Positions 16,187-31,704 of a stretch of DNA of 64,000 nt are shown here, one piece after another. The stretch comes from a virus. The stretch spans positions 19,892-83,891 of the IMG/VR virus record IMGVR_UViG_3300045974_000156; one strand, given 5' to 3'. The notes under the pieces were generated by a model, which saw only the letters and a list, made by a program, of their open reading frames with translations, did no database searches and had not been told where the DNA came from. The position numbers and the translations under genes were made by a program. Within the stretch, counting starts at the first letter, position 1. Every line of letters starts with the position of its first letter.

Positions 16187-19100
16187 ATGACAGTCGTTAC
16201 TAGCGCGAGCGCCTCTGTGTCAGGTACCAACATAACAGTTAGCTGGTCGTGCCCATATTATCCTTATAGTTGGACGATCAGTGGAAGTATTTACAATTCA
16301 GTTCCTGGAGGCAGTAGAAGTTATACATTTACAGGGGTAGGGGCTGGCACTTATTCATTTCAGGTAGGTCCAACGCCTGGTGGTGGTATAGCTGATACAT
16401 CTACAAGGGCAACCAACTCAGTAACAGTATTTACACCGCCTAGCGCGCCAAGAACCATAGTAGCCTCACTGGGTACTATAGATGCAAATGGCAATTACCC
16501 CATAAACCTGTCTTGGCTAGCACCCTCCAGTACAGGAGGATCGGCTATCACCGGATATACAGTCACACCCTCTCCTGCTGCACCTGGTTCTACTATATCA
16601 ATAACAGGTACTACAGCGGTAGTCAGTAAATTAGCTAGAGGGCAAACATACATATTTACGGTACGGGCTGGTAATGCATATGGTACAGGACTTGGGGCGA
16701 ATTCAAACTCTATCCAGGATGGTATTCAGACAGTACCGGGAGCCTCAACTGGTGTAGTAGCCTCAACATCCGGAATAGGTGCAGGGGTAACGATAAATCT
16801 AAGCTGGACTGCCCCTGTGGATACCGGAGGTGTGGCGATCACTGGCTACAACGTAGCACCTTCACCAGCCATACCGGGCAGTACTACCGTGGTGAACCTG
16901 GCTGCCAAGACTGCTGTTATTTCAAATATTCCATACTCTGCACCTCCCACTCTGTATACAAATACGTTCACTGTAAGTGCTAGCAATATAGTAGGCACAG
17001 GTCCGGATAGCGACCCTTCCAACAGCATATATCTGTTATACGGTACTCTACACAACAATGGGTATCTGGATTACCAAACAACATCACAAGATCCGTTCGA
17101 TTCTGGTAATAATCTAAGACCCAAATTAGAGGTAGACACCCTAACACTAACAGGACCGACAGTAGATAAATATGCCAAGAGTAATAATCCATTTGGCGAA
17201 AGAGAAGAATACGTAACACCATATGATAATTACAAAGGTGGTTTCAAGCTTGGAAATAACACCTACATAGACGACCAATTAGCAGTACCTGAAGATGCCT
17301 GTGATGGAATAAAGTCACTAAAGGTAAAACAAGAAGAGTACTCGACACCAAAAGATAACCTATTCGATGCAGCTAAGATCGTCAATAAAGAGATACAGGA
17401 AAGTCCCACAACATTTGATAAGGTCAACGCCGGTCTTCATGTGTTTTCAGAACAGGAGGACGACCTACTCTCACCTTTAGAATATAACGATCTCAAGTTA
17501 AAAATCAGTGTTTCATTCTTAGAGCAAATGCCAGAACCCCAGGATGGGATAGAGTGGGAGTATATCTCCGGGCTTCACTACGGTATTTATCGTCGCAACC
17601 AAGAAGAATACCCACACCCAGACGATGCATGTGATTGTAGGTATAGTATCGGGGCTAAGGCTAAGGGGGCTGAAGCCCCAACCCTTAGCGATGGTTGCCT
17701 TACAGCTCTACCTTACAACGATAAGATAAAAGAATACGTATCAGGCCCTGCGGATGGTTATATAGGTGGGCATCATGTGATGGCTGAGTATATAGACTCT
17801 GAGACACAACCTATATTGCAAGATGGTAATGATGCTGGTTTTGGGTATTTTGCAGAACAACATGATGATAACGATACAATATTTACAGACTCTGAAACGT
17901 CCTTTAGATACTATGGCACTACAGGATTTGAAAAAAATCTAGAAGGACCCCTGGACAAATGGGCTAATAATATAAGTTATGTAATAGGCTTCAAGGATGA
18001 CGGACCTATATGCTATGAGGACCAAAAAGCAGGCATTATTTGGGGTGTAAATCAAGAAGATTATGCCACTGCATCGGCTGAAGGGACCAGTGAGAAGATC
18101 GGTTCTCTCGTGTATGGCGAGGAGCTTGATTATAATTCTGCCTGGCAGGACACCAAAGATCCTATTCAGTTCTGGGTACCTGCCTCACAACCATGGCTTG
18201 CTAGCTCAGGTATAAGTTCTGTAAATAGAACGACAGTAACACTTCCACCAGAAATGTTAAAGGGTGATGTACTGATCCTTGTATTTATTCATTATAACAG
18301 CAGCATAGATGCTGCCGGGTATACAAAACTGGGTACTAGACAACTATTAGATTGGGGCGACGGTGCCTTCAGTTATGCAGATATTTATTGGAAACGTGCA
18401 ACTGGGCTAGAGTCACCACTCCCCATAGAAGTTAACGATGTAGGCACATTTGCCCAGATATATGCTTTCCGAGATTGTAATCCTGAAAACCCGCCAATCG
18501 AGCAGTTCCAGATGGGCGATGGCAGTACACTATCATTTACGTCCAGTATAGATAGCACAGAACCAATATACATCGGTATTACTTCTACCTTGGGAGATTA
18601 TGGTCCACTCATTTCCGTAGCCGATCCTTTGTACTTCCCAGTCTCAGGTGTCAATCTTTTTAATCTCGGAGTCGGCGTAAACGTAGAAATATGGGAGGGT
18701 TACCAACCACAGGCTGGTTCCATCTTGTCAGGTACCTCTTCTCCGACTGGTGGTGGTTGTGTAAATGCGTTATTTAATTTCATTGCCATACCTGGGTACT
18801 GGACCAATGTTTCGACCGCAGCAATTATCACTACTGGTGAGATAAATGAAGAAAAAAATGTCATAGCTTTTGATGACTATACCTTCGATTATAAGAGCGG
18901 TCATGGTGGCTATGTATATAATAGAGCCCTAGAAGAGACAATAACCCTACAGGATCAGCCGTTATTCCATGACGAAATGTTCTTGATAGATCCCTATAAA
19001 TATGCGGAAGAGTCTGATATGTGTGATGTGACCCCATCAGACGACTCTAGGGCTGGTAAGTATGTACTGGTTGAGTCAGATCAGGGTGATGTCATAGACC

Positions 19101-22100
19101 TGGATTACAAATTCACTACCGTACAGTTCCTACTATTAGGTCAAAAAGAAGATAAGATATCCGCCCCGAAGGATAAATGCGACTGTCATATTTCAGTTAA
19201 TAGTGATAAATCAGAGTCCATAACAACCAACGTGGCTCCATTCTTCGTCGGAAATGGACCCCCAGCAGTCATATCAAAGCCTGCATTAAATAACGGAAGA
19301 ACACCCAATCTAAGCATTACACCATGGGCAGCAATACTACCGAGAGATTTTCTATTAGCCACAGTTCATGCCTCAGACGTTCCTCCTGCATCAGCATATG
19401 CCGCTAATGCCGCAGTAGCCGTAGCAGCAGCTACCGCAGCAAATGATGTTGCTGTCGCCGCAGCCGCAGCCGCAGCCGCAGCCCCTAGTGACGTAAACCT
19501 TGCAGCAATTGCTGTATCCACCGCTGCTGCCGCATCCAAGGCTGCAACGACTTCTGCCATAGCATCATCTGTAGCCACAGATGCAGCCGATCCTGCTGGT
19601 GCTGCAATGCGGGCTGCCACCAACGCTGCCGCAACTGCCGCAACTGCCGCCAGAACAGCAGCTAATGCAGCTACTGCTGCCGCTAATGCCGCCGCCGCCA
19701 TCGTGGCTGCCGCCGCCGCCTTAGAGGCTGTAGATCCTGGCGCTGCCTTACGAGCCGCAGAGGCTACTGCCGCCGCAGCCTCCGCATATGTACTTGACAC
19801 CATAGCTGCTGCAATTTCAGCCACCAGTGACGCAGCCATTGCAATCTCTAACGCCCGTAATGCCGCTGCAACTGCCGCTAATGCCGCCGCCGCCGCAGCC
19901 AACATAGCCACGATTGCTGCCACCTCGGCATCAAACGCATCAAACTCTTTAATCAATGCCGCCGCTGCAATGGTAGCTGCTGCCTTGGGTAATGCAAATC
20001 TCATTGCCGCAAACTCTGCTGCCCGAACTGCTGCAACCTCAACCTCAACCGCCGCAGTGGCTGCCAATACCAGAAGTCTCGCAGCAGCAAATGCATTAAC
20101 TGCCGCCGGGGCTGCTGAAGCCGCAGCTTCGATAGCCACCATAGCCATAAACGACGCTGCGGCTTCTCCTTATGATCAGGATCTAGCTAACGCTGCCGCA
20201 TCCGCTGCTAGTGCTGCTGCTAGTGCCACCGTCGTCGCCGCAACTGCCGCAGCACAAAATCATGCAGCCTTTGTAACTGCCATTATCCCTGCATCGAGCC
20301 GCGCAGACGCAGCCACTACAATTGCCAATAATGCCTCTAGTGCTTCAGATGCTGTTGCTTCCATAGCAGTAGCTTCTCCATTAAATATTCACATAGTCGC
20401 AGCCTCTAATGCAGTAAACGCCGCAGCGATTGCTGCATCCACTTACGCTTCTGACGCCGCAGATGATGCTGTTGCGATTACCAATGCTTCTCTGGCTGCC
20501 GATGCTGCCGAAATAGCAACTTCCGATGCTGCTAGCGTGACTACGCCAATCGCAACCGCTGGGTTTATTAATAGCCAAGCAGTCCTGAATGCTATATCTA
20601 CAGCCGCAGCCGCAGATCCTGCTGCTGTTATCGCTCATGCCTCCAGAGCCTCCACAGCCGCCGACATAGCTCTCGCCGCTGCCGCTGCCGCAACAACTGC
20701 TGCTGATGCCGCTGATGCTGCTGCAATTGCAACTGCCGCAGCCACGACACCAACTGCCGCTGCAACTGCCGCCGACGCTACAGCTACAGCCACCGCAACT
20801 GCCGCCGACGCTACAGCTACAGCCTCGGGTAATGCAGGACTTGTGGTTTTCACAACGGAAGACTCAAACCTCGTTACAACCGCAAAAACTTCTGCTGGGT
20901 ATGCAGACTCTGCCGCAACTGCTGCATTCCGAGCAGCAGATAGGGCTACTGCCACAGCCTTAGATCCTTCCGTTATTGCCGCAGCCAGAGCAACAACAGC
21001 CATTGCCGCAGCCGCAGCCGCTCCAGATGACCAGAATCTAGCTCATGCCGCAACTGTTGCTATTGCTAATGCAGCCGCAAACCCACCCAAGGGTATAGTA
21101 TTCCATAGTGATTGGACCGTCTTACCAGTCTGCGGTCCAATGCACGCCTTCTGGAAGATAACGACAGGCGCAGAGCCACCTGTCATAATACCTTCAGTCC
21201 AGAACCATGTAGTTATGGGATCCATTACTGCTTATAGAGGTGTCGATGTAGCTTATGCTGATCCTATTACTGATATAGGACCAAGCATGTCTGATACGAA
21301 GAAGGGTCCCACTTCTGGTTATGGTGGTCAAACTTACGACGGATCTACACCTTATGTCCCGGGTGAACAGCAATACCCTATATACATATATTATCCAAAG
21401 CTTGTACCCCTCCAAACACTGAGTTATCAATTACCATCACCCTCACCAAAGGGACCTCATGAGAGGATGATTGCAATCACAGGGTACAATCTAAACGGCG
21501 GCGGTTCCGGCTTTTATCCATCTACTACTAAAGATCCAGATCCTAAGACACACATCTTGCCTGGGCTCATGCCTTATACAAGAAATGTACTGAGCGGGAA
21601 TGGACCTACGATACCCTATACATACAATGATGTCCTTCAAGTAATTAATGGATCCGGGTCAACGATCTCTAAAACAAATCAAGTTGGAACCGGATGGGGA
21701 ACTTATATATTCGACGGTGACACTATTAATGAAGGTCCATCCGAAGCACCTCTCCCAGTTTTACAGGTGTACGCACCGACTAGGACCACATTCTATGGAT
21801 TTGTGATATCTCTACGGGGTTCGTTTATCTCAAATACAGAGAATGCTGGCGTTAATATGAATCGGGTGTCAGATGACCCTAATTATGTAACATCTCTGGA
21901 TAATTACGAAGTAGAAGTTAGACCTACTAGGGCTGCACAAAAAGGACCTATAGATCCACCAGATGTTGAAAGTGAACGTCTTTGGATGCCAGGTGGTCCG
22001 TGTAAAGAGAGAGATGTCAAAGGTCCTATAGATTATTGTGATTATGAATACGTACCTGCAAACATGTTAGTATCCTATGATGATCGCCTATTAACAGCTA

Positions 22101-22600
22101 AACCTTCGGATGCCTGCAAGTCATTACTTCGCAGTGCAAATAAGTACTCCGATTCCGAGTACTCTGCCAAACCAATGGACGAAGGTATCGGCGGTACATC
22201 ACTTTACGGTATAGATTCTTCTACAGATGAGTACACCGCACCTTCGGACGAATACGGAGCCCCGCAAGAAGGTGAACAAAAATATGATATAGGGGTACCT
22301 GTAGATGATTGTGGTGGTGGTGTTCAAGGTCCAAAGGGTCCTAGAAATATCGTAGAGTACCTCGGTGGAATGGAAGCAGAAGAACCAGGTATAAAGAGCA
22401 ATAACTACCAAGAAGAAGATCTATATCCAAGCGAAGAATCGGACGTAGATGTTAAGTGGGGTTATCGTGCTGTTAATGTTGGCGAGAGGGCGCGTCCGTT
22501 AGATTATTACCTCGAAGCTAACAAAATAGGACGGGATATACCTACCGACTCTGTAGAGGTCTTGGGGTGGGAAGATGCCGTTGTTATCAAGTCTCCATGA
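16187..22600 (+). CDS. Large virion fibre-like protein (2137 aa): N-terminal FN3 domains, repeats and beta-domains paralogous to the upstream giant protein, Ala-rich helical insert
   Basis: SD GGAG upstream of the ATG. FN3 motifs PSAP..INLSWLAPSSTGGSAITGYTV..YIFTVRAGN.YGTG (two clear copies plus one divergent). Shares YAKSNNP..YVTP.D with ORF1. Ala-rich from ~19390 to ~21080. Confidence 0.75.
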   Translation: MTVVTSASASVSGTNITVSWSCPYYPYSWTISGSIYNSVPGGSRSYTFTGVGAGTYSFQVGPTPGGGIADTSTRATNSVTVFTPPSAPRTIVASLGTIDANGNYPINLSWLAPSSTGGSAITGYTVTPSPAAPGSTISITGTTAVVSKLARGQTYIFTVRAGNAYGTGLGANSNSIQDGIQTVPGASTGVVASTSGIGAGVTINLSWTAPVDTGGVAITGYNVAPSPAIPGSTTVVNLAAKTAVISNIPYSAPPTLYTNTFTVSASNIVGTGPDSDPSNSIYLLYGTLHNNGYLDYQTTSQDPFDSGNNLRPKLEVDTLTLTGPTVDKYAKSNNPFGEREEYVTPYDNYKGGFKLGNNTYIDDQLAVPEDACDGIKSLKVKQEEYSTPKDNLFDAAKIVNKEIQESPTTFDKVNAGLHVFSEQEDDLLSPLEYNDLKLKISVSFLEQMPEPQDGIEWEYISGLHYGIYRRNQEEYPHPDDACDCRYSIGAKAKGAEAPTLSDGCLTALPYNDKIKEYVSGPADGYIGGHHVMAEYIDSETQPILQDGNDAGFGYFAEQHDDNDTIFTDSETSFRYYGTTGFEKNLEGPLDKWANNISYVIGFKDDGPICYEDQKAGIIWGVNQEDYATASAEGTSEKIGSLVYGEELDYNSAWQDTKDPIQFWVPASQPWLASSGISSVNRTTVTLPPEMLKGDVLILVFIHYNSSIDAAGYTKLGTRQLLDWGDGAFSYADIYWKRATGLESPLPIEVNDVGTFAQIYAFRDCNPENPPIEQFQMGDGSTLSFTSSIDSTEPIYIGITSTLGDYGPLISVADPLYFPVSGVNLFNLGVGVNVEIWEGYQPQAGSILSGTSSPTGGGCVNALFNFIAIPGYWTNVSTAAIITTGEINEEKNVIAFDDYTFDYKSGHGGYVYNRALEETITLQDQPLFHDEMFLIDPYKYAEESDMCDVTPSDDSRAGKYVLVESDQGDVIDLDYKFTTVQFLLLGQKEDKISAPKDKCDCHISVNSDKSESITTNVAPFFVGNGPPAVISKPALNNGRTPNLSITPWAAILPRDFLLATVHASDVPPASAYAANAAVAVAAATAANDVAVAAAAAAAAAPSDVNLAAIAVSTAAAASKAATTSAIASSVATDAADPAGAAMRAATNAAATAATAARTAANAATAAANAAAAIVAAAAALEAVDPGAALRAAEATAAAASAYVLDTIAAAISATSDAAIAISNARNAAATAANAAAAAANIATIAATSASNASNSLINAAAAMVAAALGNANLIAANSAARTAATSTSTAAVAANTRSLAAANALTAAGAAEAAASIATIAINDAAASPYDQDLANAAASAASAAASATVVAATAAAQNHAAFVTAIIPASSRADAATTIANNASSASDAVASIAVASPLNIHIVAASNAVNAAAIAASTYASDAADDAVAITNASLAADAAEIATSDAASVTTPIATAGFINSQAVLNAISTAAAADPAAVIAHASRASTAADIALAAAAAATTAADAADAAAIATAAATTPTAAATAADATATATATAADATATASGNAGLVVFTTEDSNLVTTAKTSAGYADSAATAAFRAADRATATALDPSVIAAARATTAIAAAAAAPDDQNLAHAATVAIANAAANPPKGIVFHSDWTVLPVCGPMHAFWKITTGAEPPVIIPSVQNHVVMGSITAYRGVDVAYADPITDIGPSMSDTKKGPTSGYGGQTYDGSTPYVPGEQQYPIYIYYPKLVPLQTLSYQLPSPSPKGPHERMIAITGYNLNGGGSGFYPSTTKDPDPKTHILPGLMPYTRNVLSGNGPTIPYTYNDVLQVINGSGSTISKTNQVGTGWGTYIFDGDTINEGPSEAPLPVLQVYAPTRTTFYGFVISLRGSFISNTENAGVNMNRVSDDPNYVTSLDNYEVEVRPTRAAQKGPIDPPDVESERLWMPGGPCKERDVKGPIDYCDYEYVPANMLVSYDDRLLTAKPSDACKSLLRSANKYSDSEYSAKPMDEGIGGTSLYGIDSSTDEYTAPSDEYGAPQEGEQKYDIGVPVDDCGGGVQGPKGPRNIVEYLGGMEAEEPGIKSNNYQEEDLYPSEESDVDVKWGYRAVNVGERARPLDYYLEANKIGRDIPTDSVEVLGWEDAVVIKSP
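20762..20824 (+). repeat. Two exact 30-bp direct repeats at 33-bp period (11 aa) inside the Ala-rich insert
   Basis: gcaactgccgccgacgctacagctacagcc at 20762-20791 and 20795-20824. Confidence 0.9.
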
Positions 22601-22646: not shown

Positions 22647-22754
22647 CCGCATTGTTATCGAGTTACCCCGATGGACCCCGGGAGGGGCACCCAGAGGGCA
22701 GCAAGTAAATCCCCAGACCCGTATTTTACGGACAACAAAAGGACAATAAAGATT

Positions 22755-24350
22755 ATGGCACCTTCAGCAAGAATGCTAGCCGAAAAGGCTGGAATAGAAT
22801 CCCGCAAGACAATCATGGACGAGTCCTACATGGGCGCGCTCTCCTCAAAGTGGGGAGAGTTCCTAGAGGGCGTTCCTGGTCGCAGCGAGTCAGACCGTTA
22901 TCTACGCGGCTGCACCGCAATCCTGATGGAGAATCAGTCAGAGTGGCTACAGAGCATGGACGAGGACACCCGTCAGGCTAACGTAGGTACTTTCACCAAG
23001 TTCATCTTCCCAATCCTCCGCAGGGTATTCCCAAACCTCATCGCTAACGAGATCGTATCCGTTCAGCCGATGACTGCCCCAACTGGCGCTGTATTCTTCC
23101 TAGACTACGTTTACGCTAGCTCCAAGGGTCAGACCGGTTATACCCCGGGCGCAAATGGCGCAGCAGTAGGCGCAACTCCTGGTTATAACTCCTCTGGAAC
23201 TAACCCTAACGCAACCTTCCCTGACCAGTTTGACCAGAATTACTCAGCCGAGTTCATCAACGGCGAGCCTCTAGTCACAGGCGGCAGCGGCAAGTACGGC
23301 GGCGTCGGCGCAGCAATCAGCACCGTTAAGCTAGCTTGGGCTCCAGTTCGTGACGTAGACTCCGTTAACAGCTACTCCGTAGTTATCTCCGAAGTAGCCC
23401 AGAGCACTGGCGCAGTAGTTCAGAGCGCCACTATGAACGCTGGCGGCGGATCCTTCACCTTCAGCACTGGTGCAATCACCAATGCAGCCGGATCACTGAG
23501 CCTCAACGACGGAACCCTAACCGGTTTCAAGTTTGAGAACGCAGTTGGCGCAGGTAATCAGGTTTTGGCTTACTACTTCTACAACGGTGAAGCCAATAGC
23601 TCGATCCCACAGATCAGCCTAAACGTTCGCCAGCTACCTGTTCAGGCAATTCCTCGCCGCCTCAAGGCGCTATGGTCCAGCGAAGCTGCTGAAGATCTAC
23701 GCGCTCTACACGGCGTAGACGCCGAAGCAGAAATGGTCGCCACTATCGCCCAGGAAATCGCGCTAGAGATCGACCGTGAAATCATCCAGGACCTCTTCAA
23801 GAACAGCACCGGAACCACCGCTTCTTGGGACAGGACCCCTCCTGCCGCAATCTCTGAGCACGATCACATCCGCTCACTGATTACCCAGATCAGCACCGTA
23901 TCAAACCTCATTCACAAGAAGACCCTCCGTAGCCCTGCAAACTTCATCGTTACTTCTCCGGAAGTCAGCGCCCTGTTTGCTCAGTTAACTACTCATGGTG
24001 ATTTCAATACCATCTTTAGCTCTGACACTGGCACCCCATACGGAAGCCGCGACGTTCCCCGCCCCCTAAGCCGTCAGGGACAGTTCGGCGTATACAAGGT
24101 CGGAACCCTCATGGGCAAGTGGACCGTATATGAGGATCCATACTTCACCCGTAACCAGATGCTAGTCGGTCTAAAGGGCGATGGATATCTGAACGCCGGA
24201 TATGCATGGGCTCCTTATGTCCCGCTTCAGGTCACTCCTACGTTCCTCGATCCAGCTGATATGACAATGAGGAAGGGTCTCCGTACTCGCTATGCCAAGA
24301 AACTTCTCCGTTCAGAATTCTACGGAAGCATTGCGGTCTCGAATCTTTAA
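22755..24350 (+). CDS. gp23: Major capsid protein, T4 gp23-like (HK97 fold)
   Basis: Motifs AILMENQ, PILRRVFPNLIANEIVSVQPMTAPTG.VF, RRLKA.WS.EAAEDL.A.HG.DAEAE, EIDREII, YAWAPYVPL, RTRYA. Start reassigned to the ATG at 22755 (AAAAGGA upstream) rather than 22671. Confidence 0.95.
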   Translation: MAPSARMLAEKAGIESRKTIMDESYMGALSSKWGEFLEGVPGRSESDRYLRGCTAILMENQSEWLQSMDEDTRQANVGTFTKFIFPILRRVFPNLIANEIVSVQPMTAPTGAVFFLDYVYASSKGQTGYTPGANGAAVGATPGYNSSGTNPNATFPDQFDQNYSAEFINGEPLVTGGSGKYGGVGAAISTVKLAWAPVRDVDSVNSYSVVISEVAQSTGAVVQSATMNAGGGSFTFSTGAITNAAGSLSLNDGTLTGFKFENAVGAGNQVLAYYFYNGEANSSIPQISLNVRQLPVQAIPRRLKALWSSEAAEDLRALHGVDAEAEMVATIAQEIALEIDREIIQDLFKNSTGTTASWDRTPPAAISEHDHIRSLITQISTVSNLIHKKTLRSPANFIVTSPEVSALFAQLTTHGDFNTIFSSDTGTPYGSRDVPRPLSRQGQFGVYKVGTLMGKWTVYEDPYFTRNQMLVGLKGDGYLNAGYAWAPYVPLQVTPTFLDPADMTMRKGLRTRYAKKLLRSEFYGSIAVSNL

Positions 24351-24374
24351 CAACTAGCCAGAAACCCAGTATTT

Positions 24375-24412
24375 CAGAGGGGCTGTCCGAAAGGGCAGCC
24401 CCTCTGTCTTTT
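24375..24412 (+). terminator. Rho-independent terminator after the major capsid gene
   Basis: CAGAGGGGCTGTCC-GAAA-GGGCAGCCCCTCTG 14-bp stem followed by TCTTTT. Confidence 0.9.
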
Positions 24413-24519
24413 GTGTGTACTCGTAGCGCATGACAAACTGAGAAATTTATAGAATTAAAAATGTAGCTACGTCTACCCGTGCAGCATGACGCTTTTGGCG
24501 TCATATGACAAGGGTATAC

Positions 24520-24586
24520 TTGACAACTAGTATGCTCTGTTGTACTCTTCTTTTATGACACTCTCGTGTGTCCGGAAAAGAGTATA
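24520..24586 (+). promoter_or_regulatory. Sigma70-like promoter overlapping an RBS-sequestering hairpin for the endonuclease-methyltransferase gene
   Basis: TTGACA (24520-25), 17 nt, TACTCT (24543-48). TACTCTT(C)TTTT..GACAC-loop-GTGTC..GGAAAAGAGTA pairs across 24541-24586. Confidence 0.65.
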
Positions 24587-24590
24587 TTGA

Positions 24591-26417
24591 ATGGATTTAA
24601 ATACATGGTCCCCTGAACTAGCTTGGTGGCTGGGTGTAACTTTTGGCGACGGCTACTCCAGGCACAATGATACTCACATATCTACTACCCTAACTAGTGG
24701 TGACTATGATCTGGTCGCTAAGTGGATTATTCTCGGTGGGGGCTCGGTAGACAAAATAACCAAGAGGTATTCTGGAAAATGCTGGGACGCTAATATTTAC
24801 GATCCCAGATATGCCAAATGGCTCTCAGATAAATACGGAATGAACGGTAGGAAGGATGACAAACTTGAGTGGCCCTCCGACCTTCCAGCAGATCTGTACT
24901 CTCATTTTGTTAGGGGACTATGGGACACTGATGGTAATTTAACGCATATCCGGCCAACTGATACCCGAGCAGGAAAACTAGCCGTAACTTTTTTCAATAA
25001 AGGATATAAACTAGTTGAAGGATTGGTGTCCAACTTTCCAGAACTTAAGCTTAAAGACGGAACCATGACTTCAGGACCATACAAAGGCTACAAGTACATG
25101 AAGGCTACAATTACTGGACCTGGAGCAGTTATATTTGGAGAGAAGGTATACAAAGATGCACCACAGCATATTAGGTGCGACAGAAAGTACAATATTTTCA
25201 ATACGTTTTATTCTTGGTTTCAGAGTAGTAATAATTCTTGTAAGACTTGTGGGGCATTATGTAAGCGTGGGGAAGATTTTTGTGCATATCATCGCAAGTT
25301 CAACGGATCCAATCCACCTCCGTGTGAATGCGGTGTAGAGCTTATTTACGCCTTTAATAAATGTCAAAAGTGCTACAGGAGAGACTACAGAGGGGGGGTT
25401 CGCGATTGGAGTCCTGCAATTTTACAACAGTTGGCAGATTTTCCAGTAGAGTGCTGGCATGATTATTCGGACTCTTATAAATCAGAAGCCTTGGATGTAC
25501 TAGAGGGTATATTCTCTACTCGCAAGTTTCCAGAGTACATATTTGAAAACCCACCATCAGATCTATCCTCGGTAACACAAGGTAAACTTACCTTTAACCA
25601 AATTACTCATACTATTTCTAATGTAGGTTGGTCAGGACAACCACTGTGTACTTCTTTTTATAGGCATAGATTTGATGCTAAATATTTAGAGGGTATGTCG
25701 ATAAGAGAAGCCTACGCAGATCCAAAATCACTAAGATCCGCACTCAAATACCAACTAGATCACCGCGATCCTATCAGACCCAAGAGAGTTATAAAGGCAC
25801 TATCAGCAAAACACAAGACCCCAACCAACTTCGCCCCTGTGCTAGCCCGATGGCTGGTAGACCGGTATTGCCCTCAGGGTGGCACCGTATTTGACCCCTG
25901 TTCTGGCTATGGTGGTAGATTACTAGGAAGTCTAGCCAGTAATAAGAATGTTCATTATATAGGTCACGATATAGAGCCGCTCACGATAGAGGCTGGTAAG
26001 AAAATGTGCGCTAACCTAGGTACAGATCGCGCCACGCTGGAGATCAAAGCCCTAGAGTCAGATGACCCATTTCCAAAAAGCGACTTACTGATGACATGCC
26101 CACCTTATTATAATAGAGAGGTCTATGGTGAAGCTTCCGAAGCTTCTGCCAAGTCTTATGAAACCTACGGAGCCTGGCTTCAAGGTTGGATGGGCAAGCT
26201 GCTGGATAAAGCCCAAGCCTCTACAAAGACTCTAGCTATCTGCGTTAGTACTTTTAGGTTAAATAACGACAAGGTAGAGTTTCCAAACGATCTAAGATCC
26301 TTAATCCAAAATAAAGGCATGAAGATCCGAGAGGAGCTATTTTGGGAAACATCTACTTTTGGTAAAAAAGCCAGTGGCAAGGGGCGTCAAGAACATATTT
26401 TCGTGGTGGACTTCTGA
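24591..26417 (+). CDS. Fusion protein: double-motif LAGLIDADG homing endonuclease + Cys/His Zn-finger linker + SAM-dependent amino-DNA methyltransferase
   Basis: LAWWLGVTFGDG and HFVRGLWDTDG (LAGLIDADG helices). CKTC..C..FCAYH and CEC..CQKC. MTase motif I FDPCSGYGGR and motif IV TCPPYYNREVY. Confidence 0.85.
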   Translation: MDLNTWSPELAWWLGVTFGDGYSRHNDTHISTTLTSGDYDLVAKWIILGGGSVDKITKRYSGKCWDANIYDPRYAKWLSDKYGMNGRKDDKLEWPSDLPADLYSHFVRGLWDTDGNLTHIRPTDTRAGKLAVTFFNKGYKLVEGLVSNFPELKLKDGTMTSGPYKGYKYMKATITGPGAVIFGEKVYKDAPQHIRCDRKYNIFNTFYSWFQSSNNSCKTCGALCKRGEDFCAYHRKFNGSNPPPCECGVELIYAFNKCQKCYRRDYRGGVRDWSPAILQQLADFPVECWHDYSDSYKSEALDVLEGIFSTRKFPEYIFENPPSDLSSVTQGKLTFNQITHTISNVGWSGQPLCTSFYRHRFDAKYLEGMSIREAYADPKSLRSALKYQLDHRDPIRPKRVIKALSAKHKTPTNFAPVLARWLVDRYCPQGGTVFDPCSGYGGRLLGSLASNKNVHYIGHDIEPLTIEAGKKMCANLGTDRATLEIKALESDDPFPKSDLLMTCPPYYNREVYGEASEASAKSYETYGAWLQGWMGKLLDKAQASTKTLAICVSTFRLNNDKVEFPNDLRSLIQNKGMKIREELFWETSTFGKKASGKGRQEHIFVVDF

Positions 26418-26623
26418 TGCACCCACCCTGTAGCGAGTCAGCCCAGTATCTCTATATGGAGTTTCTGGAGGAACAAAGAATGATTAATCTTGGGCTCAAT
26501 AGTGAAATTATGAGTTATGACCACGAGTTCCCAGAGGATCCCATGGTGGGCGATTGGCTTGATTATTTATGGGAAAAACTACCCCGTGGGACCCAGATAG
26601 GTAACGAGGTAATGGCTGGCTAA
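26417..26623 (+). CDS. Hypothetical protein (68 aa)
   Basis: ATG overlaps the upstream stop (TGATG coupling). Confidence 0.45.
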   Translation: MHPPCSESAQYLYMEFLEEQRMINLGLNSEIMSYDHEFPEDPMVGDWLDYLWEKLPRGTQIGNEVMAG

Positions 26624-26624
26624 T

Positions 26625-27071
26625 TTACTTCTTAGCCACCGCTTTCTTAGCTGCACGCCTAGCAAGAACCATTTTTAATCTCTCAGGAGTGACCTTCTGG
26701 TCTACCCACCAGTCTGCCCAATCTTGGGACATATTGTTTAGGTGGCGGCTTCTGCGCGGGGTCATCATACTACCCGGGACACGCCCAGTCTTATTTCCAG
26801 CGATGACAAGATCTTCATCACTTTCAACTATTCTGTATTTATTTATTGGGTGCTTCTCGCTTTCTTGTGCTACCAATTCTCGCCAAGGCTTGCGAATCCC
26901 GGTAGATCTCAAGGCAGCCGATTTCATGATAGCCCTTCGTTCTTTGTCTTTTTGATCCACAGGTACTTGGTCTATCGCTCTAGGTTTATTCAGACGTTGC
27001 GATCCCTGAGGCATAATCGGAACATCAGAGTGCATAGTCTCATTTAACATATAAGCATCAATCCAGGACAT
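26625..27071 (-). CDS. Hypothetical basic protein (148 aa), possible internal head protein
   Basis: GGGG SD-like upstream on the minus strand. N-terminal MLNE-TM and a Lys/Arg-rich C-terminus. Confidence 0.65.
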   Translation of the reverse strand: MSWIDAYMLNETMHSDVPIMPQGSQRLNKPRAIDQVPVDQKDKERRAIMKSAALRSTGIRKPWRELVAQESEKHPINKYRIVESDEDLVIAGNKTGRVPGSMMTPRRSRHLNNMSQDWADWWVDQKVTPERLKMVLARRAAKKAVAKK

Positions 27072-31080: not shown

Positions 31081-31138
31081 TTGACATAATCCGCACACTG
31101 TGGCATGGTAGTCCTCTAACCGGAGGCTACCATGCCAT
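31081..31138 (+). promoter_or_regulatory. Sigma70-like promoter embedded in a hairpin that sequesters the SD and ATG of the GIY-YIG gene
   Basis: TTGACA (31081-86), 17 nt, TGg-CATGGT. TGGCATGGTAG(T)CCTCT-AACC-GGAGG-CTACCATGCCA. Confidence 0.75.
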
Positions 31139-31704
31139 TTGTGTATAGTTTGCTTGAACCCCTGACCCACGAAGTACGCTACATAGGCTGTACAAAAGGC
31201 TCCTTGAGTCAGAGACTCTCTACTCATATTTCTAGGGCAAAACAAGGGTTGACCAATGTCAGTTGTTTTGACTGGATTCGTGAATTGTCAGAGCAAGGGC
31301 TAAGACCTAAGATCCTACTAGAATCTGAGCACCTAGATTCGGATGCAGCTTATGCCGAGGAAACTAGGCTGATAGATATGTATCGAAGCAAAGGTGCCAG
31401 AATATTGAATAAAGCTAGTGGTGGTCCGGGCTGTTCTGGAGCCATCAGAAGTGCAGAAACCAGACTCAAGATGGGTTTAGCTAAGAAAGACATTCCAAAG
31501 ACACAAGAGCACAGGCTGAATCTAGCAATTGCAAACGGCGGCAAAGATTTCATAGACAACACTGGTGCTGTCTATAAGAATATTCATGAGGCTGGAGAAA
31601 AACTCGGCATCGCGTACCAAAATATATGGAAAGTATTAGCCGGTAAACGCAAGTCAGCCGGTGGCAGAACCTTTAAGTATATTGAGCAGTCCAGTAATTT
31701 GTAG
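31132..31704 (+). CDS. Free-standing GIY-YIG homing endonuclease (seg-like) with NUMOD3 and NUMOD1/IENR1-like DNA-binding modules
   Basis: FVYSL..RYIGCT..QRLSTH, E and N conserved. SAETRLKMG repeat. YKNIHEAGEKLGI..IWKVLAGKRKSAGG.TFKY. Confidence 0.9.
   Translation: MPFVYSLLEPLTHEVRYIGCTKGSLSQRLSTHISRAKQGLTNVSCFDWIRELSEQGLRPKILLESEHLDSDAAYAEETRLIDMYRSKGARILNKASGGPGCSGAIRSAETRLKMGLAKKDIPKTQEHRLNLAIANGGKDFIDNTGAVYKNIHEAGEKLGIAYQNIWKVLAGKRKSAGGRTFKYIEQSSNL

What the first reader, a model, noticed from the sequence alone, without database searches (positions are those of the whole stretch)
24591..26417. LAGLIDADG homing endonuclease fused to a DNA methyltransferase: candidate self-immunising selfish nuclease or single-chain R-M-like system
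Seen: one 608-aa ORF contains two LAGLIDADG helices with acidic catalytic residues intact (GVTFGDG, GLWDTDG), a Cys/His Zn-finger region, and an amino-MTase with motif I (FDPCSGYGG) before motif IV. Motif IV is TCPPY, with Cys where S/D/N is canonical. The gene sits right after the capsid-gene terminator with its own promoter. Known: LAGLIDADG enzymes normally protect their host allele by disrupting or diverging the target site, and REase-MTase fusions (Type IIG) use PD-(D/E)xK, not LAGLIDADG, domains. Inference: either the protein methylates its own genome and cuts unmethylated co-infecting relatives (plausibly in gp23), or the LAGLIDADG domain acts as a long-site targeting module for the MTase.
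Basis: partly seen in the sequence, partly recalled or inferred. Interest (0 to 1): 0.82.

Follow-up and report, generated by a model that had tools for sequence, protein, structure and literature searches.

The report
Mobile homing nuclease fused to methyltransferase
Just behind its capsid gene this uncultured pond phage carries one real gene joining a rare-cutting selfish nuclease to a DNA methyltransferase, a member of a widespread and apparently undescribed class of mobile phage genes whose function is still untested.

Summary
ORF 24591-26417 (608 aa) is intact and colinear with 10 full-length homologs. It contains an I-DmoI/PI-PfuI-like double-motif LAGLIDADG nuclease (res 4-210, both acidic residues kept), an 8-ligand Cys/His zinc module (217-261) and a circularly permuted PF01555-type amino-methyltransferase (272-608; motif I before motif IV, T-C-P-P-Y).

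It is not a one-off. The methyltransferase module has 641 cluster representatives at E<=1e-30. In uncultured phages it is mostly fused to homing-nuclease modules: two LAGLIDADG families, HNH-type, and a second nuclease where the LAGLIDADG site is dead.

In two unrelated phage groups the fusion sits directly after the major head gene, in a slot that is empty, nuclease-only or fusion-bearing among close relatives. One relative pair is 100% identical over 1630 nt and differs only by the methyltransferase part.

Best reading (0.55): a free-standing homing endonuclease gene carrying a methyltransferase as fused cargo. Promoter claim unverified; Cys in motif IV is a rare recurrent variant (5 of 198).

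This scan has noted the same phenomenon on other DNA (34 notes, at least 26 genomes). Eight literature searches found no description.

The parts
22671..24350 (+). Major head protein gene (context; candidate region of the nuclease's target in relatives)
   Evidence: phrog_138 major head protein, 4.2e-68. It is 57-60% identical to the head proteins that precede the homologous fusions in L002 and L003.
24375..24406 (+). Terminator-like hairpin after the head gene
   Evidence: 14-bp stem with 10 GC pairs, followed by a T-run.
24536..24594 (+). RNA hairpin covering the purine-rich stretch and the start codon of the fusion gene
   Evidence: MFE -17.2 kcal/mol, z -2.97; 0 of 200 shuffles fold as well. 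A regulatory role is inferred only.
24591..26417 (+). Whole fusion ORF, 608 aa (P0001)
   Evidence: Colinear with 10 full-length homologs at 31-41% identity. An independent contig covers it with 0 differences.
24600..25220 (+). Monomeric double-motif LAGLIDADG endonuclease domain (res 4-210), with catalytic D20 and D114
   Evidence: VIA Z 17.8 to PI-PfuI, 17.4 to I-Tsp061I, 16.2 to I-DmoI. Foldseek top hit 2dch. phrog_4645 at 1.8e-11. Acidic residues conserved.
25239..25373 (+). Cys/His zinc module (res 217-261): CxxC...CxxH and CxC...CxxC
   Evidence: Seven of the eight ligand columns are invariant in 11 homologs, and all eight are kept as C or H. Low pLDDT. The fold and DNA-binding role are inferred.
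25404..25820 (+). Helical N-terminal subdomain of the methyltransferase module (res 272-410); possible target-recognition part
   Evidence: It belongs to the conserved module shared by stand-alone and fused forms: profile positions ~285-611 and alignment A5. Function inferred.
25821..26414 (+). Rossmann-fold catalytic domain of the amino-methyltransferase (res 411-608)
   Evidence: Pfam PF01555 at 29.8 bits, above the cut-off of 26.7. Profile hits to 2zie_A (2e-12) and to the DNA cytosine-N4 MTase 8s9n (1.8e-5). VIA Z 17-17.8 to TrmN, Trm14 and Trm11.
25887..25919 (+). Motif I / SAM-binding loop VFDPCSGYGGR (res 433-443)
   Evidence: D435, P436, C437, G439, G441, G442 and R443 are invariant in 11 homologs and in 60 wider relatives.
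26094..26108 (+). Motif IV T-C-P-P-Y (res 502-506), Cys in place of the usual Ser
   Evidence: P504, P505 and Y506 are invariant in the 11 full-length homologs. In the 60 wider relatives P505 and Y506 are invariant and P504 is at least 90% conserved. The first residue is S in 172, G in 16 and C in 5 of 198 modules.

Best explanation
The gene is a free-standing homing endonuclease gene (HEG) carrying a DNA methyltransferase as a fused cargo domain: a 'homing methyltransferase' cassette.

Inferred mechanism. The LAGLIDADG domain, helped by the zinc module, recognises a long site in relatives that lack the cassette, probably in or next to the 3' end of the major head gene. It cuts there during co-infection, and recombinational repair copies the whole ORF into the slot behind the head gene.

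The C-terminal module is a complete, permuted PF01555-type N4-cytosine or N6-adenine DNA methyltransferase that also exists on its own in cultured phages. It most likely methylates phage DNA at a short motif (anti-restriction or another epigenetic benefit). The selfish nuclease then brings a useful gene with it, and the methyltransferase gene gains mobility.

Shown here: the domains, intact catalytic motifs, family size, the slot behind the head gene, presence/absence polymorphism, and modular exchange of nuclease and methyltransferase parts.

Inferred: cleavage, homing, the target site, the methylated base and motif, and the benefit.
For: (1) Both halves are autonomous units. Stand-alone N-halves exist: P0047 (278 aa), P0048 (295 aa), and complete ORFs in L131 (278 aa) and L104 (317 aa). 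Stand-alone MTase modules exist: P0035 (335 aa), P0037, P0043, and annotated 328-362-aa genes in Vibrio phage 2.058.O, Bacillus phage G and Staphylococcus phage Alsa_1.

(2) Position. In the window and in L001, L002 and L003 (4 of 4 with context), the fusion directly follows a phrog_138 head gene.

(3) Polymorphism in this phage group. Of 80 head-gene-anchored IMG/VR loci, tblastn finds the full fusion in 2 and the N-half alone in 3 (two of them identical). A second phrog_4645 endonuclease (c13, 378 aa) occupies the slot in 7 more loci. The other loci go straight to the conserved genes c3-c2-c1-c4 or hold unrelated small ORFs. L131 against L117, L118 and L119 shows a clean ~900-bp insertion between the head-gene terminator and the next gene's leader. 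L001 equals the L094/L088 gene order plus the fusion and one extra ORF.

(4) Recoding. Between L131 (nuclease present) and L117 (absent), the head gene differs by 12.6% overall. The single most diverged 24-nt window (13 of 24) lies 48 nt from its 3' end and is entirely synonymous (LRSEYYG codons). Nuclease-free relatives do not show this among themselves.

(5) Selection for cutting. D20 and D114 are kept in all rows where the LAGLIDADG is the only nuclease, except P0076, a 317-aa nuclease-only cluster representative that also has both acids replaced and whose completeness I could not check. All 5 proteins with an extra N-terminal domain have both acids replaced. In 4 of those 5, the extra domain hits 'homing endonuclease' PHROGs 314 or 7168. 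In 93 LAGLIDADG_2-type fusions, the acids are kept at 94% and 100%.

(6) Modularity. On a FastTree of 196 MTase modules, the N-terminal type changes at least 50 times. A 99%-supported 37-row clade around P0001 mixes LAGLIDADG (11), HNH-type (7), double-nuclease (6) and unassigned (10) N-termini. On a careful tree of the nuclease module, fused and unfused forms interleave, with at least 4 changes (2 forced by well-supported branches).

(7) Same behaviour in an unrelated phage group. There the LAGLIDADG_2-MTase fusion follows a phrog_2522 head gene. Of 61 head-gene-anchored loci with at least 2200 nt downstream, 31 have nothing, 16 the fusion, 9 the nuclease alone and 5 the MTase with another N-terminus.

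(8) L193 and L195 are 100% identical over 1630 nt: head-gene 3' end, spacer and the first 377 aa. They differ only in that L193 runs on into the MTase while L195 stops.
Against: No close relative of this window's own phage was found. The nearest head proteins are 57-61% identical and there is no megablast hit. Mobility is therefore shown for the family, not for this copy. Four of four fusions of this type sitting in the same slot is equally what vertical inheritance would give.

No target site is identified for any fusion. Fusion-bearing L001, L086 and L101 show no excess divergence at the head-gene 3' end against their nearest empty relatives (0.23-0.28 against 0.19-0.27 overall). These pairs are too diverged for the test to have power.

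The recoding signal rests on one nuclease-only genome.

Cargo explains co-occurrence but not why a covalent fusion, rather than a neighbouring gene, arose with at least four nuclease types.

Cys or Gly in place of Ser in motif IV might mean weakened catalysis in this copy.

By fold alone, the closest solved methyltransferases are tRNA m2G enzymes, so a DNA substrate rests on sequence-profile matches.

Confidence: 0.55

Rival explanations
1. Self-immunising 'cut the rival, mark yourself' element. The nuclease domain docks the tethered methyltransferase on the long target site. The phage's own copy of the site is then methylated and resistant, while unmethylated co-infecting relatives are cut. 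This would be a single-chain, LAGLIDADG-based restriction-modification-like system.
For: Both catalytic centres are conserved in one chain over 31-41% identity. The same methyltransferase module is fused again and again to different site-specific nucleases, which asks for a functional link beyond hitch-hiking. The fusion-bearing genomes L001, L086 and L101 show no recoding peak at the head-gene 3' end, unlike the nuclease-only L131. This fits the idea weakly and at low power. From recall, not checked here: CpG methylation can block cleavage by some LAGLIDADG enzymes.
Against: Nuclease-only relatives occupy the same slot (L131, L103/L104; 9 of 61 in the second phage group). The L2-only form, 100% identical to L193 over 1630 nt including the head-gene 3' end and spacer, occurs in 4 contigs (L191, L194, L195, L196) without the methyltransferase. 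Immunity there does not need it, unless another methylase acts in trans. The methyltransferase module is conserved while the nucleases and the head genes they flank are unrelated. Its specificity would therefore have to be set by tethering, and stand-alone forms in cultured phages argue that it has a specificity of its own.
Confidence: 0.17
2. Targeted or anchored methyltransferase. The LAGLIDADG and zinc part acts mainly as a sequence-specific DNA-binding module that brings the methyltransferase to particular sites. Cleavage is weak, nicking only, or vestigial.
For: In 5 of 5 proteins with an added N-terminal nuclease domain, the LAGLIDADG scaffold is kept although both acids are lost. The scaffold therefore has a value other than catalysis. 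The module has no obvious C-terminal target-recognition domain: only ~100 aa follow motif IV.
Against: The acidic residues are conserved in 9 of 11 full-length homologs and in 94-100% of 93 LAGLIDADG_2-type fusions. Where they are lost, another nuclease is added. The insertion polymorphism is what an active homing nuclease produces. Stand-alone methyltransferase modules work without any such anchor.
Confidence: 0.1
3. Stable, vertically inherited late gene of this phage lineage: a decayed former HEG now kept only for its methyltransferase, no longer mobile. It is expressed with the head gene so that progeny DNA is methylated before packaging.
For: The fusion sits in the same place in 4 of 4 loci of this type although the proteins are only 31-41% identical. 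A hairpin over the start codon and a position behind a strong late gene fit late, read-through-dependent expression. No close cassette-free relative of the window's phage was found.
Against: Intact catalytic acids. Only 2 of 80 head-gene-anchored relatives carry the fusion. Fused and unfused forms interleave on the nuclease tree.
Confidence: 0.1
4. Artefact: two genes joined by a misassembly or frameshift; or the methyltransferase acts on RNA, not DNA.
For: By fold the nearest solved structures are tRNA m2G methyltransferases (TrmN, Trm14, Trm11; Z 17-17.8) and METTL5.
Against: Ten colinear full-length homologs from other samples. An independent contig matches with 0 differences. Pfam N6_N4_Mtase scores above its cut-off. 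The best profile matches in the PDB are DNA methylases (2zie_A at 2e-12; the cytosine-N4 MTase 8s9n at 1.8e-5). The Z-scores of DNA and RNA enzymes are not separable for this common fold.
Confidence: 0.03

Closest known systems
Free-standing homing endonucleases of T4-like phages (Seg and Mob proteins; 'intronless homing'); named from my own knowledge, not read here
   Same: An intergenic cassette between conserved genes. Sporadic presence among relatives. Suspected target in the neighbouring conserved gene, with synonymous recoding in the carrier. A hairpin over the start codon.
   Different: Seg and Mob enzymes are GIY-YIG or HNH proteins with small DNA-binding modules and carry no second enzyme. 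Here the nuclease is a LAGLIDADG and the same chain continues into a complete DNA methyltransferase.
Monomeric double-motif LAGLIDADG enzymes I-DmoI, I-Tsp061I and the PI-PfuI endonuclease domain
   Same: Fold match over res 2-213 (Z 16.2-17.8, rmsd 2.7-3.5, 167-182 residues aligned). Two LAGLIDADG helices, each ending in an acidic residue.
   Different: Those are archaeal enzymes encoded in introns or inteins. This one is free-standing in a phage, is only 13-15% identical to them, is followed by an 8-ligand zinc module, and falls below the Pfam LAGLIDADG_3 threshold.
PF01555 (N6_N4_Mtase) beta-class DNA methyltransferases, e.g. TTHA0409-type 'putative modification methylase' 2zie and the DNA cytosine-N4 methyltransferase 8s9n
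   Same: TSPPY-type motif IV, and a P-x-x-F-P ... DP-x-G-x-G motif X/I block. Pfam score above the cut-off.
   Different: The order is permuted: motif X/I comes before motif IV. There is an N-terminal helical subdomain. Cys replaces Ser in motif IV in this copy. Passages of PMC7824862 and PMC4738411 mention permuted M.MunI/M.MboIIA-like clades and 'S in the strand-4 motif' as a sign of N4-cytosine methylation, but in those passages no fusion to homing endonucleases.
Type IIG / IIL single-chain restriction-modification enzymes (MmeI family; abstract of PMC2731913 seen in the listing)
   Same: Nuclease and methyltransferase in one polypeptide.
   Different: From recall, those use a PD-(D/E)XK nuclease, have a C-terminal target-recognition domain, recognise short sites, cut at a distance and defend cells. 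This protein has a LAGLIDADG nuclease, is phage-borne and behaves as a mobile insertion.
Inteins inside mycobacteriophage DNA methyltransferases (PMC5050341, passages read)
   Same: A homing-type element associated with a phage N6_N4 methyltransferase.
   Different: Those are in-frame inteins that splice out of the methylase. Here there is no Hint domain (none among the Pfam hits) and the nuclease is a permanent N-terminal domain.

Membership tests
LAGLIDADG homing endonuclease superfamily (monomeric, double-motif) | Two LAGLIDADG helices, each ending in a conserved acidic residue | tested here: met
   GVTFGDG (D20) and GLWDTDG (D114); conserved in 9 of 11 homologs.
LAGLIDADG homing endonuclease superfamily (monomeric, double-motif) | Pseudo-dimeric alpha-beta-beta-alpha-beta-beta-alpha fold | tested here: met
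   AF2 pLDDT 85-95 over res 1-210. Z 17.8 to PI-PfuI, 17.4 to I-Tsp061I, 16.2 to I-DmoI. Foldseek top hit 2dch.
LAGLIDADG homing endonuclease superfamily (monomeric, double-motif) | Match to a curated family model (Pfam PF14528 LAGLIDADG_3) at its threshold | tested here: inconclusive
   13.6 bits against a cut-off of 22.5. Homologs P0003-P0006, P0008 and P0011 carry a precomputed PF14528 hit. phrog_4645 'endonuclease' matches at 1.8e-11.
LAGLIDADG homing endonuclease superfamily (monomeric, double-motif) | Site-specific double-strand cleavage of a long target | not testable with these tools
   Needs a cleavage assay.
Free-standing homing endonuclease gene (intronless homing) | Own ORF in an intergenic slot between conserved genes, not in an intron or intein | tested here: met
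   It lies between the head-gene terminator and the next genes. No Hint domain among the Pfam hits. Clean intergenic insertion in L131.
Free-standing homing endonuclease gene (intronless homing) | Sporadic presence/absence at the same site among related genomes | tested here: met
   Met for the family: 2 fusions and 3 nuclease-only among 80 head-gene-anchored loci; L001 against L094/L088; second phage group 31 none / 16 fusion / 9 nuclease only / 5 other of 61. Not testable for the window's own phage, because no close relative was found.
Free-standing homing endonuclease gene (intronless homing) | Target site in the cassette-free allele near the insertion; carrier allele immune through sequence change | tested here: inconclusive
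   L131 against L117: the most diverged 24-nt window of the head gene (13 of 24, all synonymous) lies 48 nt from the 3' end. This rests on one genome. No such peak appears for the fusion carriers, at low power.
PF01555 N6/N4 amino-DNA-methyltransferases | Pfam model at the gathering threshold | tested here: met
   29.8 bits against 26.7. 47 of 60 wider relatives match.
PF01555 N6/N4 amino-DNA-methyltransferases | SAM-binding motif I and catalytic (D/N/S)PP(Y/F) motif IV | tested here: met
   The DPCSGYGG residues D435, P436, C437, G439, G441 and G442 are invariant. The PPY core is conserved: P504, P505 and Y506 invariant in the 11 homologs, P505 and Y506 invariant and P504 at least 90% in the 60 wider relatives. 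The first residue is Cys here, a minor variant (5 of 198), so full activity is not assured.
PF01555 N6/N4 amino-DNA-methyltransferases | Beta-class order (motif IV ... TRD ... motif I) | tested here: not met
   Motif I (res 433-443) precedes motif IV (res 502-506). Matches to 9c3u, 2zie and 8s9n come in swapped order. It is a permuted relative, not a canonical beta-class member.
PF01555 N6/N4 amino-DNA-methyltransferases | Methylation of DNA (m4C or m6A) | not testable with these tools
   Needs a methylome of an expressing host.
Type IIG/IIL single-chain restriction-modification enzymes | N-terminal PD-(D/E)XK nuclease fused to a gamma-class MTase with a C-terminal TRD (feature list recalled) | tested here: not met
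   The N-terminal domain is a LAGLIDADG fold. Only ~100 residues follow motif IV.

The most novel reading that the evidence does not exclude
The fusion is a one-protein 'cut the rival, mark yourself' system. The long-site homing nuclease both cleaves unmethylated co-infecting relatives and positions its own methyltransferase on the resident copy of the site, making the carrier immune. That would be the first restriction-modification-like system built on a LAGLIDADG (and, in sister proteins, on HNH-type or other homing nucleases). It would also be a natural prototype of a site-directed DNA methyltransferase guided by a meganuclease scaffold.
Probability: 0.15. Interest if true: 0.9.

Novelty: new variant of a known kind. 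Interest (0 to 1): 0.7.

Why it matters
Homing endonucleases and orphan phage methyltransferases are each well known. A large natural family in which they are one polypeptide, with the nuclease module swapped repeatedly around a conserved methyltransferase, was described in none of the papers my eight searches returned.

If the cargo reading is right, it shows how an epigenetic anti-restriction function spreads horizontally among phages by homing. It would also show how a selfish nuclease secures its retention by being welded to a useful enzyme.

If the self-immunity reading is right, it is a new class of restriction-modification-like system with 20-bp-scale specificity.

Either way, these proteins are ready-made natural fusions of a meganuclease scaffold to a DNA methyltransferase. 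That is of practical interest for site-directed methylation. The subclade with a dead LAGLIDADG site plus an added nuclease is a natural experiment on which activity is selected.

Tried and rejected
Misassembly or two genes: rejected.

Decayed LAGLIDADG passenger: rejected for this copy and for most of the family. It is true only of the 5 double-nuclease proteins.

Intein or intron origin: no Hint domain among the Pfam hits, and the nuclease is N-terminal. The intein-in-methylase cases of PMC5050341 are a different thing.

Bacterial origin or prophage: a scan of 185,579 species genomes gave only 4 partial matches, all in MAG contigs. The search is limited by the peptide patterns it uses.

Finding a cassette-free close relative of the window's phage failed: megablast against phages gave no match, and a single-protein head-gene scan found none.

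Synteny downstream of the fusion: window proteins w68 to w430 have no counterparts in the 80 head-gene loci, apart from two weak hits. The small ORF overlapping the fusion's stop (26417-26623) is unrelated to the ORF in the same position in L001 and has no PHROG hit.

Target-site test in the second phage group: the last 93 nt of the head gene show no class-specific pattern among none, nuclease-only and fusion loci, so the target is not in that stretch or differs between lineages.

Recoding test for the fusion carriers: no signal, at low power.

GIY-YIG assignment of the extra N-terminal domain: Pfam finds no GIY-YIG model there, only sub-threshold NUMOD3. PHROGs call it 'homing endonuclease'.

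Expression: no RNA holder was listed for the stretch. This is no evidence either way.

The subdomain at res 272-332 is therefore barely tested against solved folds.

Literature: eight searches, and passages of PMC5050341, PMC7824862 and PMC4738411, gave no description of a natural homing-endonuclease-methyltransferase fusion. Supplements are closed, and subscription journals and REBASE or InterPro architecture tables were not searchable, so 'not in print' is provisional.


Full report
**What is there.** The window is bases 19892-83891 of an 83,891-bp IMG/VR virus record judged 42% complete. The only run holding the stretch is a pond metagenome.

ORF 24591-26417 (+) encodes 608 aa. It follows a phrog_138 major head protein gene (22671-24350; 4.2e-68) and a strong terminator-like hairpin at 24375-24406. 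A stable RNA hairpin at 24536-24594 covers the start codon (-17.2 kcal/mol, z -2.97).

**Domains.** An AlphaFold2 model built on 11 homologs has mean pLDDT 86.5 and pTM 0.57.

- Res 4-210 is a monomeric double-motif LAGLIDADG fold. The Foldseek top hit is I-Tsp061I. VIA-align gives Z 17.8 to the PI-PfuI endonuclease domain, 17.4 to I-Tsp061I and 16.2 to I-DmoI. phrog_4645 'endonuclease' matches at 1.8e-11. Pfam LAGLIDADG_3 is below its threshold.
- Res 217-261 holds eight Cys/His ligands conserved in all homologs. It is modelled poorly.
- Res 272-608 is the methyltransferase module: a helical subdomain followed by a Rossmann domain. Pfam N6_N4_Mtase scores above its gathering cut-off (29.8 against 26.7 bits).
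- A profile of 61 modules finds, among solved structures, first a 'putative modification methylase' (2zie_A, 2e-12) and then a DNA cytosine-N4 methyltransferase (8s9n, 1.8e-5). Both match in two pieces in swapped order. The enzyme is therefore a circularly permuted relative of beta-class DNA amino-methyltransferases, with motif I (res 433-443) ahead of motif IV (res 502-506).
- By fold alone, tRNA m2G enzymes score as high (Z 17-17.8). The fold does not decide the substrate.
- The family's motif IV is TSPPY. Cys, as here, occurs in 5 of 198 non-identical modules and Gly in 16.

**The gene is real.** Ten proteins from other samples cover 97-100% of it at 31-41% identity. A Logan contig from the pond run covers 24300-26700 without a single difference. 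That run may be the source sample, so this is an independent assembly, not an independent sample.

**It is a family, and a modular one.** A profile of the 11 full-length proteins, searched against 1.84 billion cluster representatives, finds 641 at E<=1e-30.

- The best hits are full-length fusions.
- Next come proteins that share only the methyltransferase module but are 500-1500 aa long.
- There are also true stand-alone modules of ~330-365 aa (P0035, P0037, P0043, P0087 and others) and stand-alone N-halves of 278-317 aa (P0047, P0048, P0076).
- In cultured phages the module is a stand-alone, annotated but uncharacterised gene: Vibrio phage 2.058.O 'N-4 cytosine-specific DNA methylase', Bacillus phage G gp294, Staphylococcus phage Alsa_1 'DNA methyltransferase'.

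In IMG/VR, 152 stretches encode a relative. In the best 80, the ORF holding the match is 466-1266 aa long, with 6-717 residues ahead of the match and 176 or more in all but the three full-length relatives L001-L003. Pfam on 60 of these ORFs (the non-redundant ones of the 80) gives N6_N4_Mtase in 47, LAGLIDADG_2 in 40, HTH_23 in 29, ROS_MUCR in 8, LAGLIDADG_3 in 2 and HNH_3 in 1.

My local classification of all 245 sequences in hand gives these architectures:

| Architecture | Count |
|---|---|
| LAGLIDADG_2-type + MTase | 104 |
| This LAGLIDADG type + MTase | 26 |
| Extra nuclease + this type + MTase | 6 |
| HNH + MTase | 4 |
| Nuclease only | 7 |
| Odd orders | 6 |
| MTase with no assigned N-terminus | 92 |

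Most of those 92 still have 100-550 unassigned N-terminal residues. Ten of them were scanned against PHROGs. Seven have HNH or homing-endonuclease families in that region and three have nothing.

**Are the nucleases alive?** D20 and D114 are kept wherever the LAGLIDADG is the only nuclease among the 25 rows examined, with one exception: P0076, a 317-aa nuclease-only representative of unknown completeness, which also has both replaced. All five cluster representatives with a ~140-aa N-terminal extension (P0010, P0012, P0030, P0031, P0032) have both acids replaced. In four of the five, that extension matches 'homing endonuclease' PHROGs 314 or 7168. phrog_314 is the same family as the window's own free-standing endonuclease at 31132-31704. 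Pfam does not call the extension GIY-YIG.

In 93 non-identical LAGLIDADG_2-type domains fused to the module, the two acidic positions are Asp in 94% and 100%. A loss of the LAGLIDADG active site is thus accompanied by the gain of another nuclease. I take this as evidence that cutting is selected in this architecture.

**Where it sits, and whether it moves.** In the window and in the three IMG/VR loci with full-length relatives, the gene directly follows a phrog_138 head gene whose product is 57-60% identical to the window's.

I anchored a search on that head protein and fetched 80 loci.

- tblastn with the window's protein finds the whole fusion in 2 (the contigs of L002 and L003) and only res 3-267 in 3 (L131; L103 and L104, which are identical).
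- Clustering the ORFs downstream of the head gene shows a conserved series c3-c2-c1-c4-c6-c8, preceded by a variable slot.
- That slot holds nothing, small unknown ORFs, the present nuclease family, or in 7 loci a second 340-380-aa protein that also matches phrog_4645 (2.1e-26).
- L131 aligned with L117, L118 and L119 shows a clean ~900-bp insertion of the nuclease cassette between the head-gene terminator and the conserved leader of the next gene.
- L001 has the gene order of L094 and L088 plus the fusion and one extra ORF, with c2 70-74% identical.
- One relative (L128) has a group I intron with a 249-aa ORF inside the head gene itself. This region is a hot spot for homing-type elements.

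**A second, unrelated phage group shows the same thing with more statistical weight.** In at least 53 of the 77 loci L004-L080, the LAGLIDADG_2-methyltransferase fusion follows the same gene series. The gene directly before it is a phrog_2522 major head protein (3.8e-48).

I anchored a scan on that head protein (83-96% identity). Among the 61 of 80 loci with at least 2200 nt downstream, 31 have neither domain, 16 have nuclease plus methyltransferase, 9 have the nuclease alone and 5 have the methyltransferase with another N-terminus. Two of the nine nuclease-only hits lie further downstream than the slot (L217, L219).

L193 and L195 are 100% identical over 1630 nt: the last 300 nt of the head gene, the spacer and codons 1-377 of the nuclease. 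After that point L193 continues into the methyltransferase (DPCGGWGG at 496, SPPY at 570). L195 ends after six more codons, keeping the first ~28 residues of the methyltransferase module. Three further contigs (L191, L194, L196) share L195's head-gene 3' end and the same nuclease-only pattern downstream. This is a very recent loss, or less likely a gain, of the methyltransferase part on an otherwise identical background.

**Trees.** On a FastTree of 196 methyltransferase modules, the N-terminal type needs at least 50 changes. A 99%-supported clade of 37 rows around the window's protein holds 11 LAGLIDADG, 7 HNH-type, 6 double-nuclease and 10 unassigned N-termini. This is a quick method, so its stars deserve less trust. 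I left out P0038 and P0050, which were mislabelled, and all modules shorter than 270 aa.

On a careful IQ-TREE of 25 nuclease modules, fused and unfused forms interleave, with at least 4 changes of which 2 are forced by well-supported branches. A 99/97 clade holds five unfused forms and one fused. L131 and L104 are complete ORFs.

**Target and immunity.** Between L131 (nuclease present) and L117 (absent), the head gene differs at 12.6% of sites. The most diverged 24-nt window of the whole gene (13 of 24) lies 48 nt from the stop and is purely synonymous: LRSEYYG encoded by TTG AGG TCA GAA TAT TAT GGA against CTC CGT AGC GAG TAC TAC GGT. The cassette-free relatives L117, L118 and L119 are nearly identical to each other there.

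This is the signature expected of a carrier allele made immune to its own nuclease, but it rests on one genome. For the fusion carriers L001, L086 and L101 there is no such peak. Their nearest empty relatives are 19-27% diverged, so the test has little power. In the second phage group, the last 93 nt of the head gene show no class-specific pattern.

**Interpretation.** The simplest account of all this is a free-standing homing endonuclease gene whose ORF has captured a complete phage DNA methyltransferase (confidence 0.55). Both parts are autonomous elsewhere. The cassette comes and goes at a fixed slot next to the most conserved late gene. The nuclease site is under selection, and the two parts are exchanged as modules.

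What the covalent link buys is inferred. The methyltransferase gene becomes mobile and is always inside the co-conversion tract. The nuclease gene becomes hard to lose without losing a useful function.

It would explain why the same methyltransferase is welded to so many different nucleases. Against it stand the nuclease-only forms in the same slot and the L193/L195 pair. The pure-targeting idea is weaker (about 0.10). A vertically inherited, no longer mobile gene cannot be excluded for this particular copy (about 0.10).

**Known or new.** Free-standing homing endonucleases, LAGLIDADG folds and permuted N4/N6 methyltransferases are all known. Their fusion was described in none of the papers returned by eight full-text searches, nor in the passages I read of two comparative-genomics papers on phage and eukaryotic methylases. 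Supplements, REBASE and InterPro could not be consulted.

Earlier notes of this scan record the same phenomenon, mostly the LAGLIDADG_2 type, in at least 26 other genomes. I saw these notes only after my own analysis, and they agree with it. What this window adds:
- the I-DmoI-like LAGLIDADG variant with a zinc module;
- the dead-site-plus-second-nuclease subclade;
- the recoded head-gene end in L131;
- the identical-background pair with and without the methyltransferase.

Noticed in passing
L128:505-1452 (IMG/VR relative; head gene split at L128:225-545 and 1500-2708): The major head gene of one relative is interrupted after '...EIVSVQP' by ~960 bp that match the group I intron model RF00028 over its full length (37.9 bits, below the gathering score of 50; E 8.9e-8). 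The insert holds a 249-aa ORF with no PHROG hit. It looks like an intron-borne endonuclease in the same gene that the free-standing cassettes flank.
   Followed up: partly
window 24536-24594: A stable hairpin (-17.2 kcal/mol, z -2.97, 0 of 200 shuffles as good) pairs the purine-rich stretch and the ATG of the fusion gene.
   Followed up: partly
window 31132-31704: A second free-standing endonuclease gene (190 aa): phrog_314 'homing endonuclease' at 1.4e-12, with an I-HmuI NUMOD-like C-terminus (Pfam 1.2e-7). It is 29% identical over 124 aa to the extra N-terminal domain of the 748-aa dead-LAGLIDADG fusion in L002/L086.
   Followed up: partly
L091:6524-7657 and six other head-gene loci (c13): A different 340-380-aa protein that also matches phrog_4645 (2.1e-26) occupies the same slot behind the head gene. 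At least two diverged lineages of this endonuclease type compete for one site.
   Followed up: partly
L195:4572-5723 against L193:3173 to contig end: A nuclease-only ORF (383 aa) keeps the first ~28 residues of the methyltransferase module and is otherwise 100% identical to the fusion in a sister contig. This is a fresh deletion or replacement junction at the domain boundary.
   Followed up: yes
window 2-16063 and 16187-22600: Two giant ORFs (more than 5350 aa, open at the window start; and 2137 aa with a long Ala-rich stretch) lie upstream of the head gene. The third-group fusions (L018, L023, L035, L049) also lie downstream of 1300-2200-aa ORFs.
   Followed up: no
window 26417-26623: A 68-aa ORF starts on the stop codon of the fusion gene (TGATG overlap). 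It has no PHROG hit and no similarity to the ORF in the same position of L001.
   Followed up: partly
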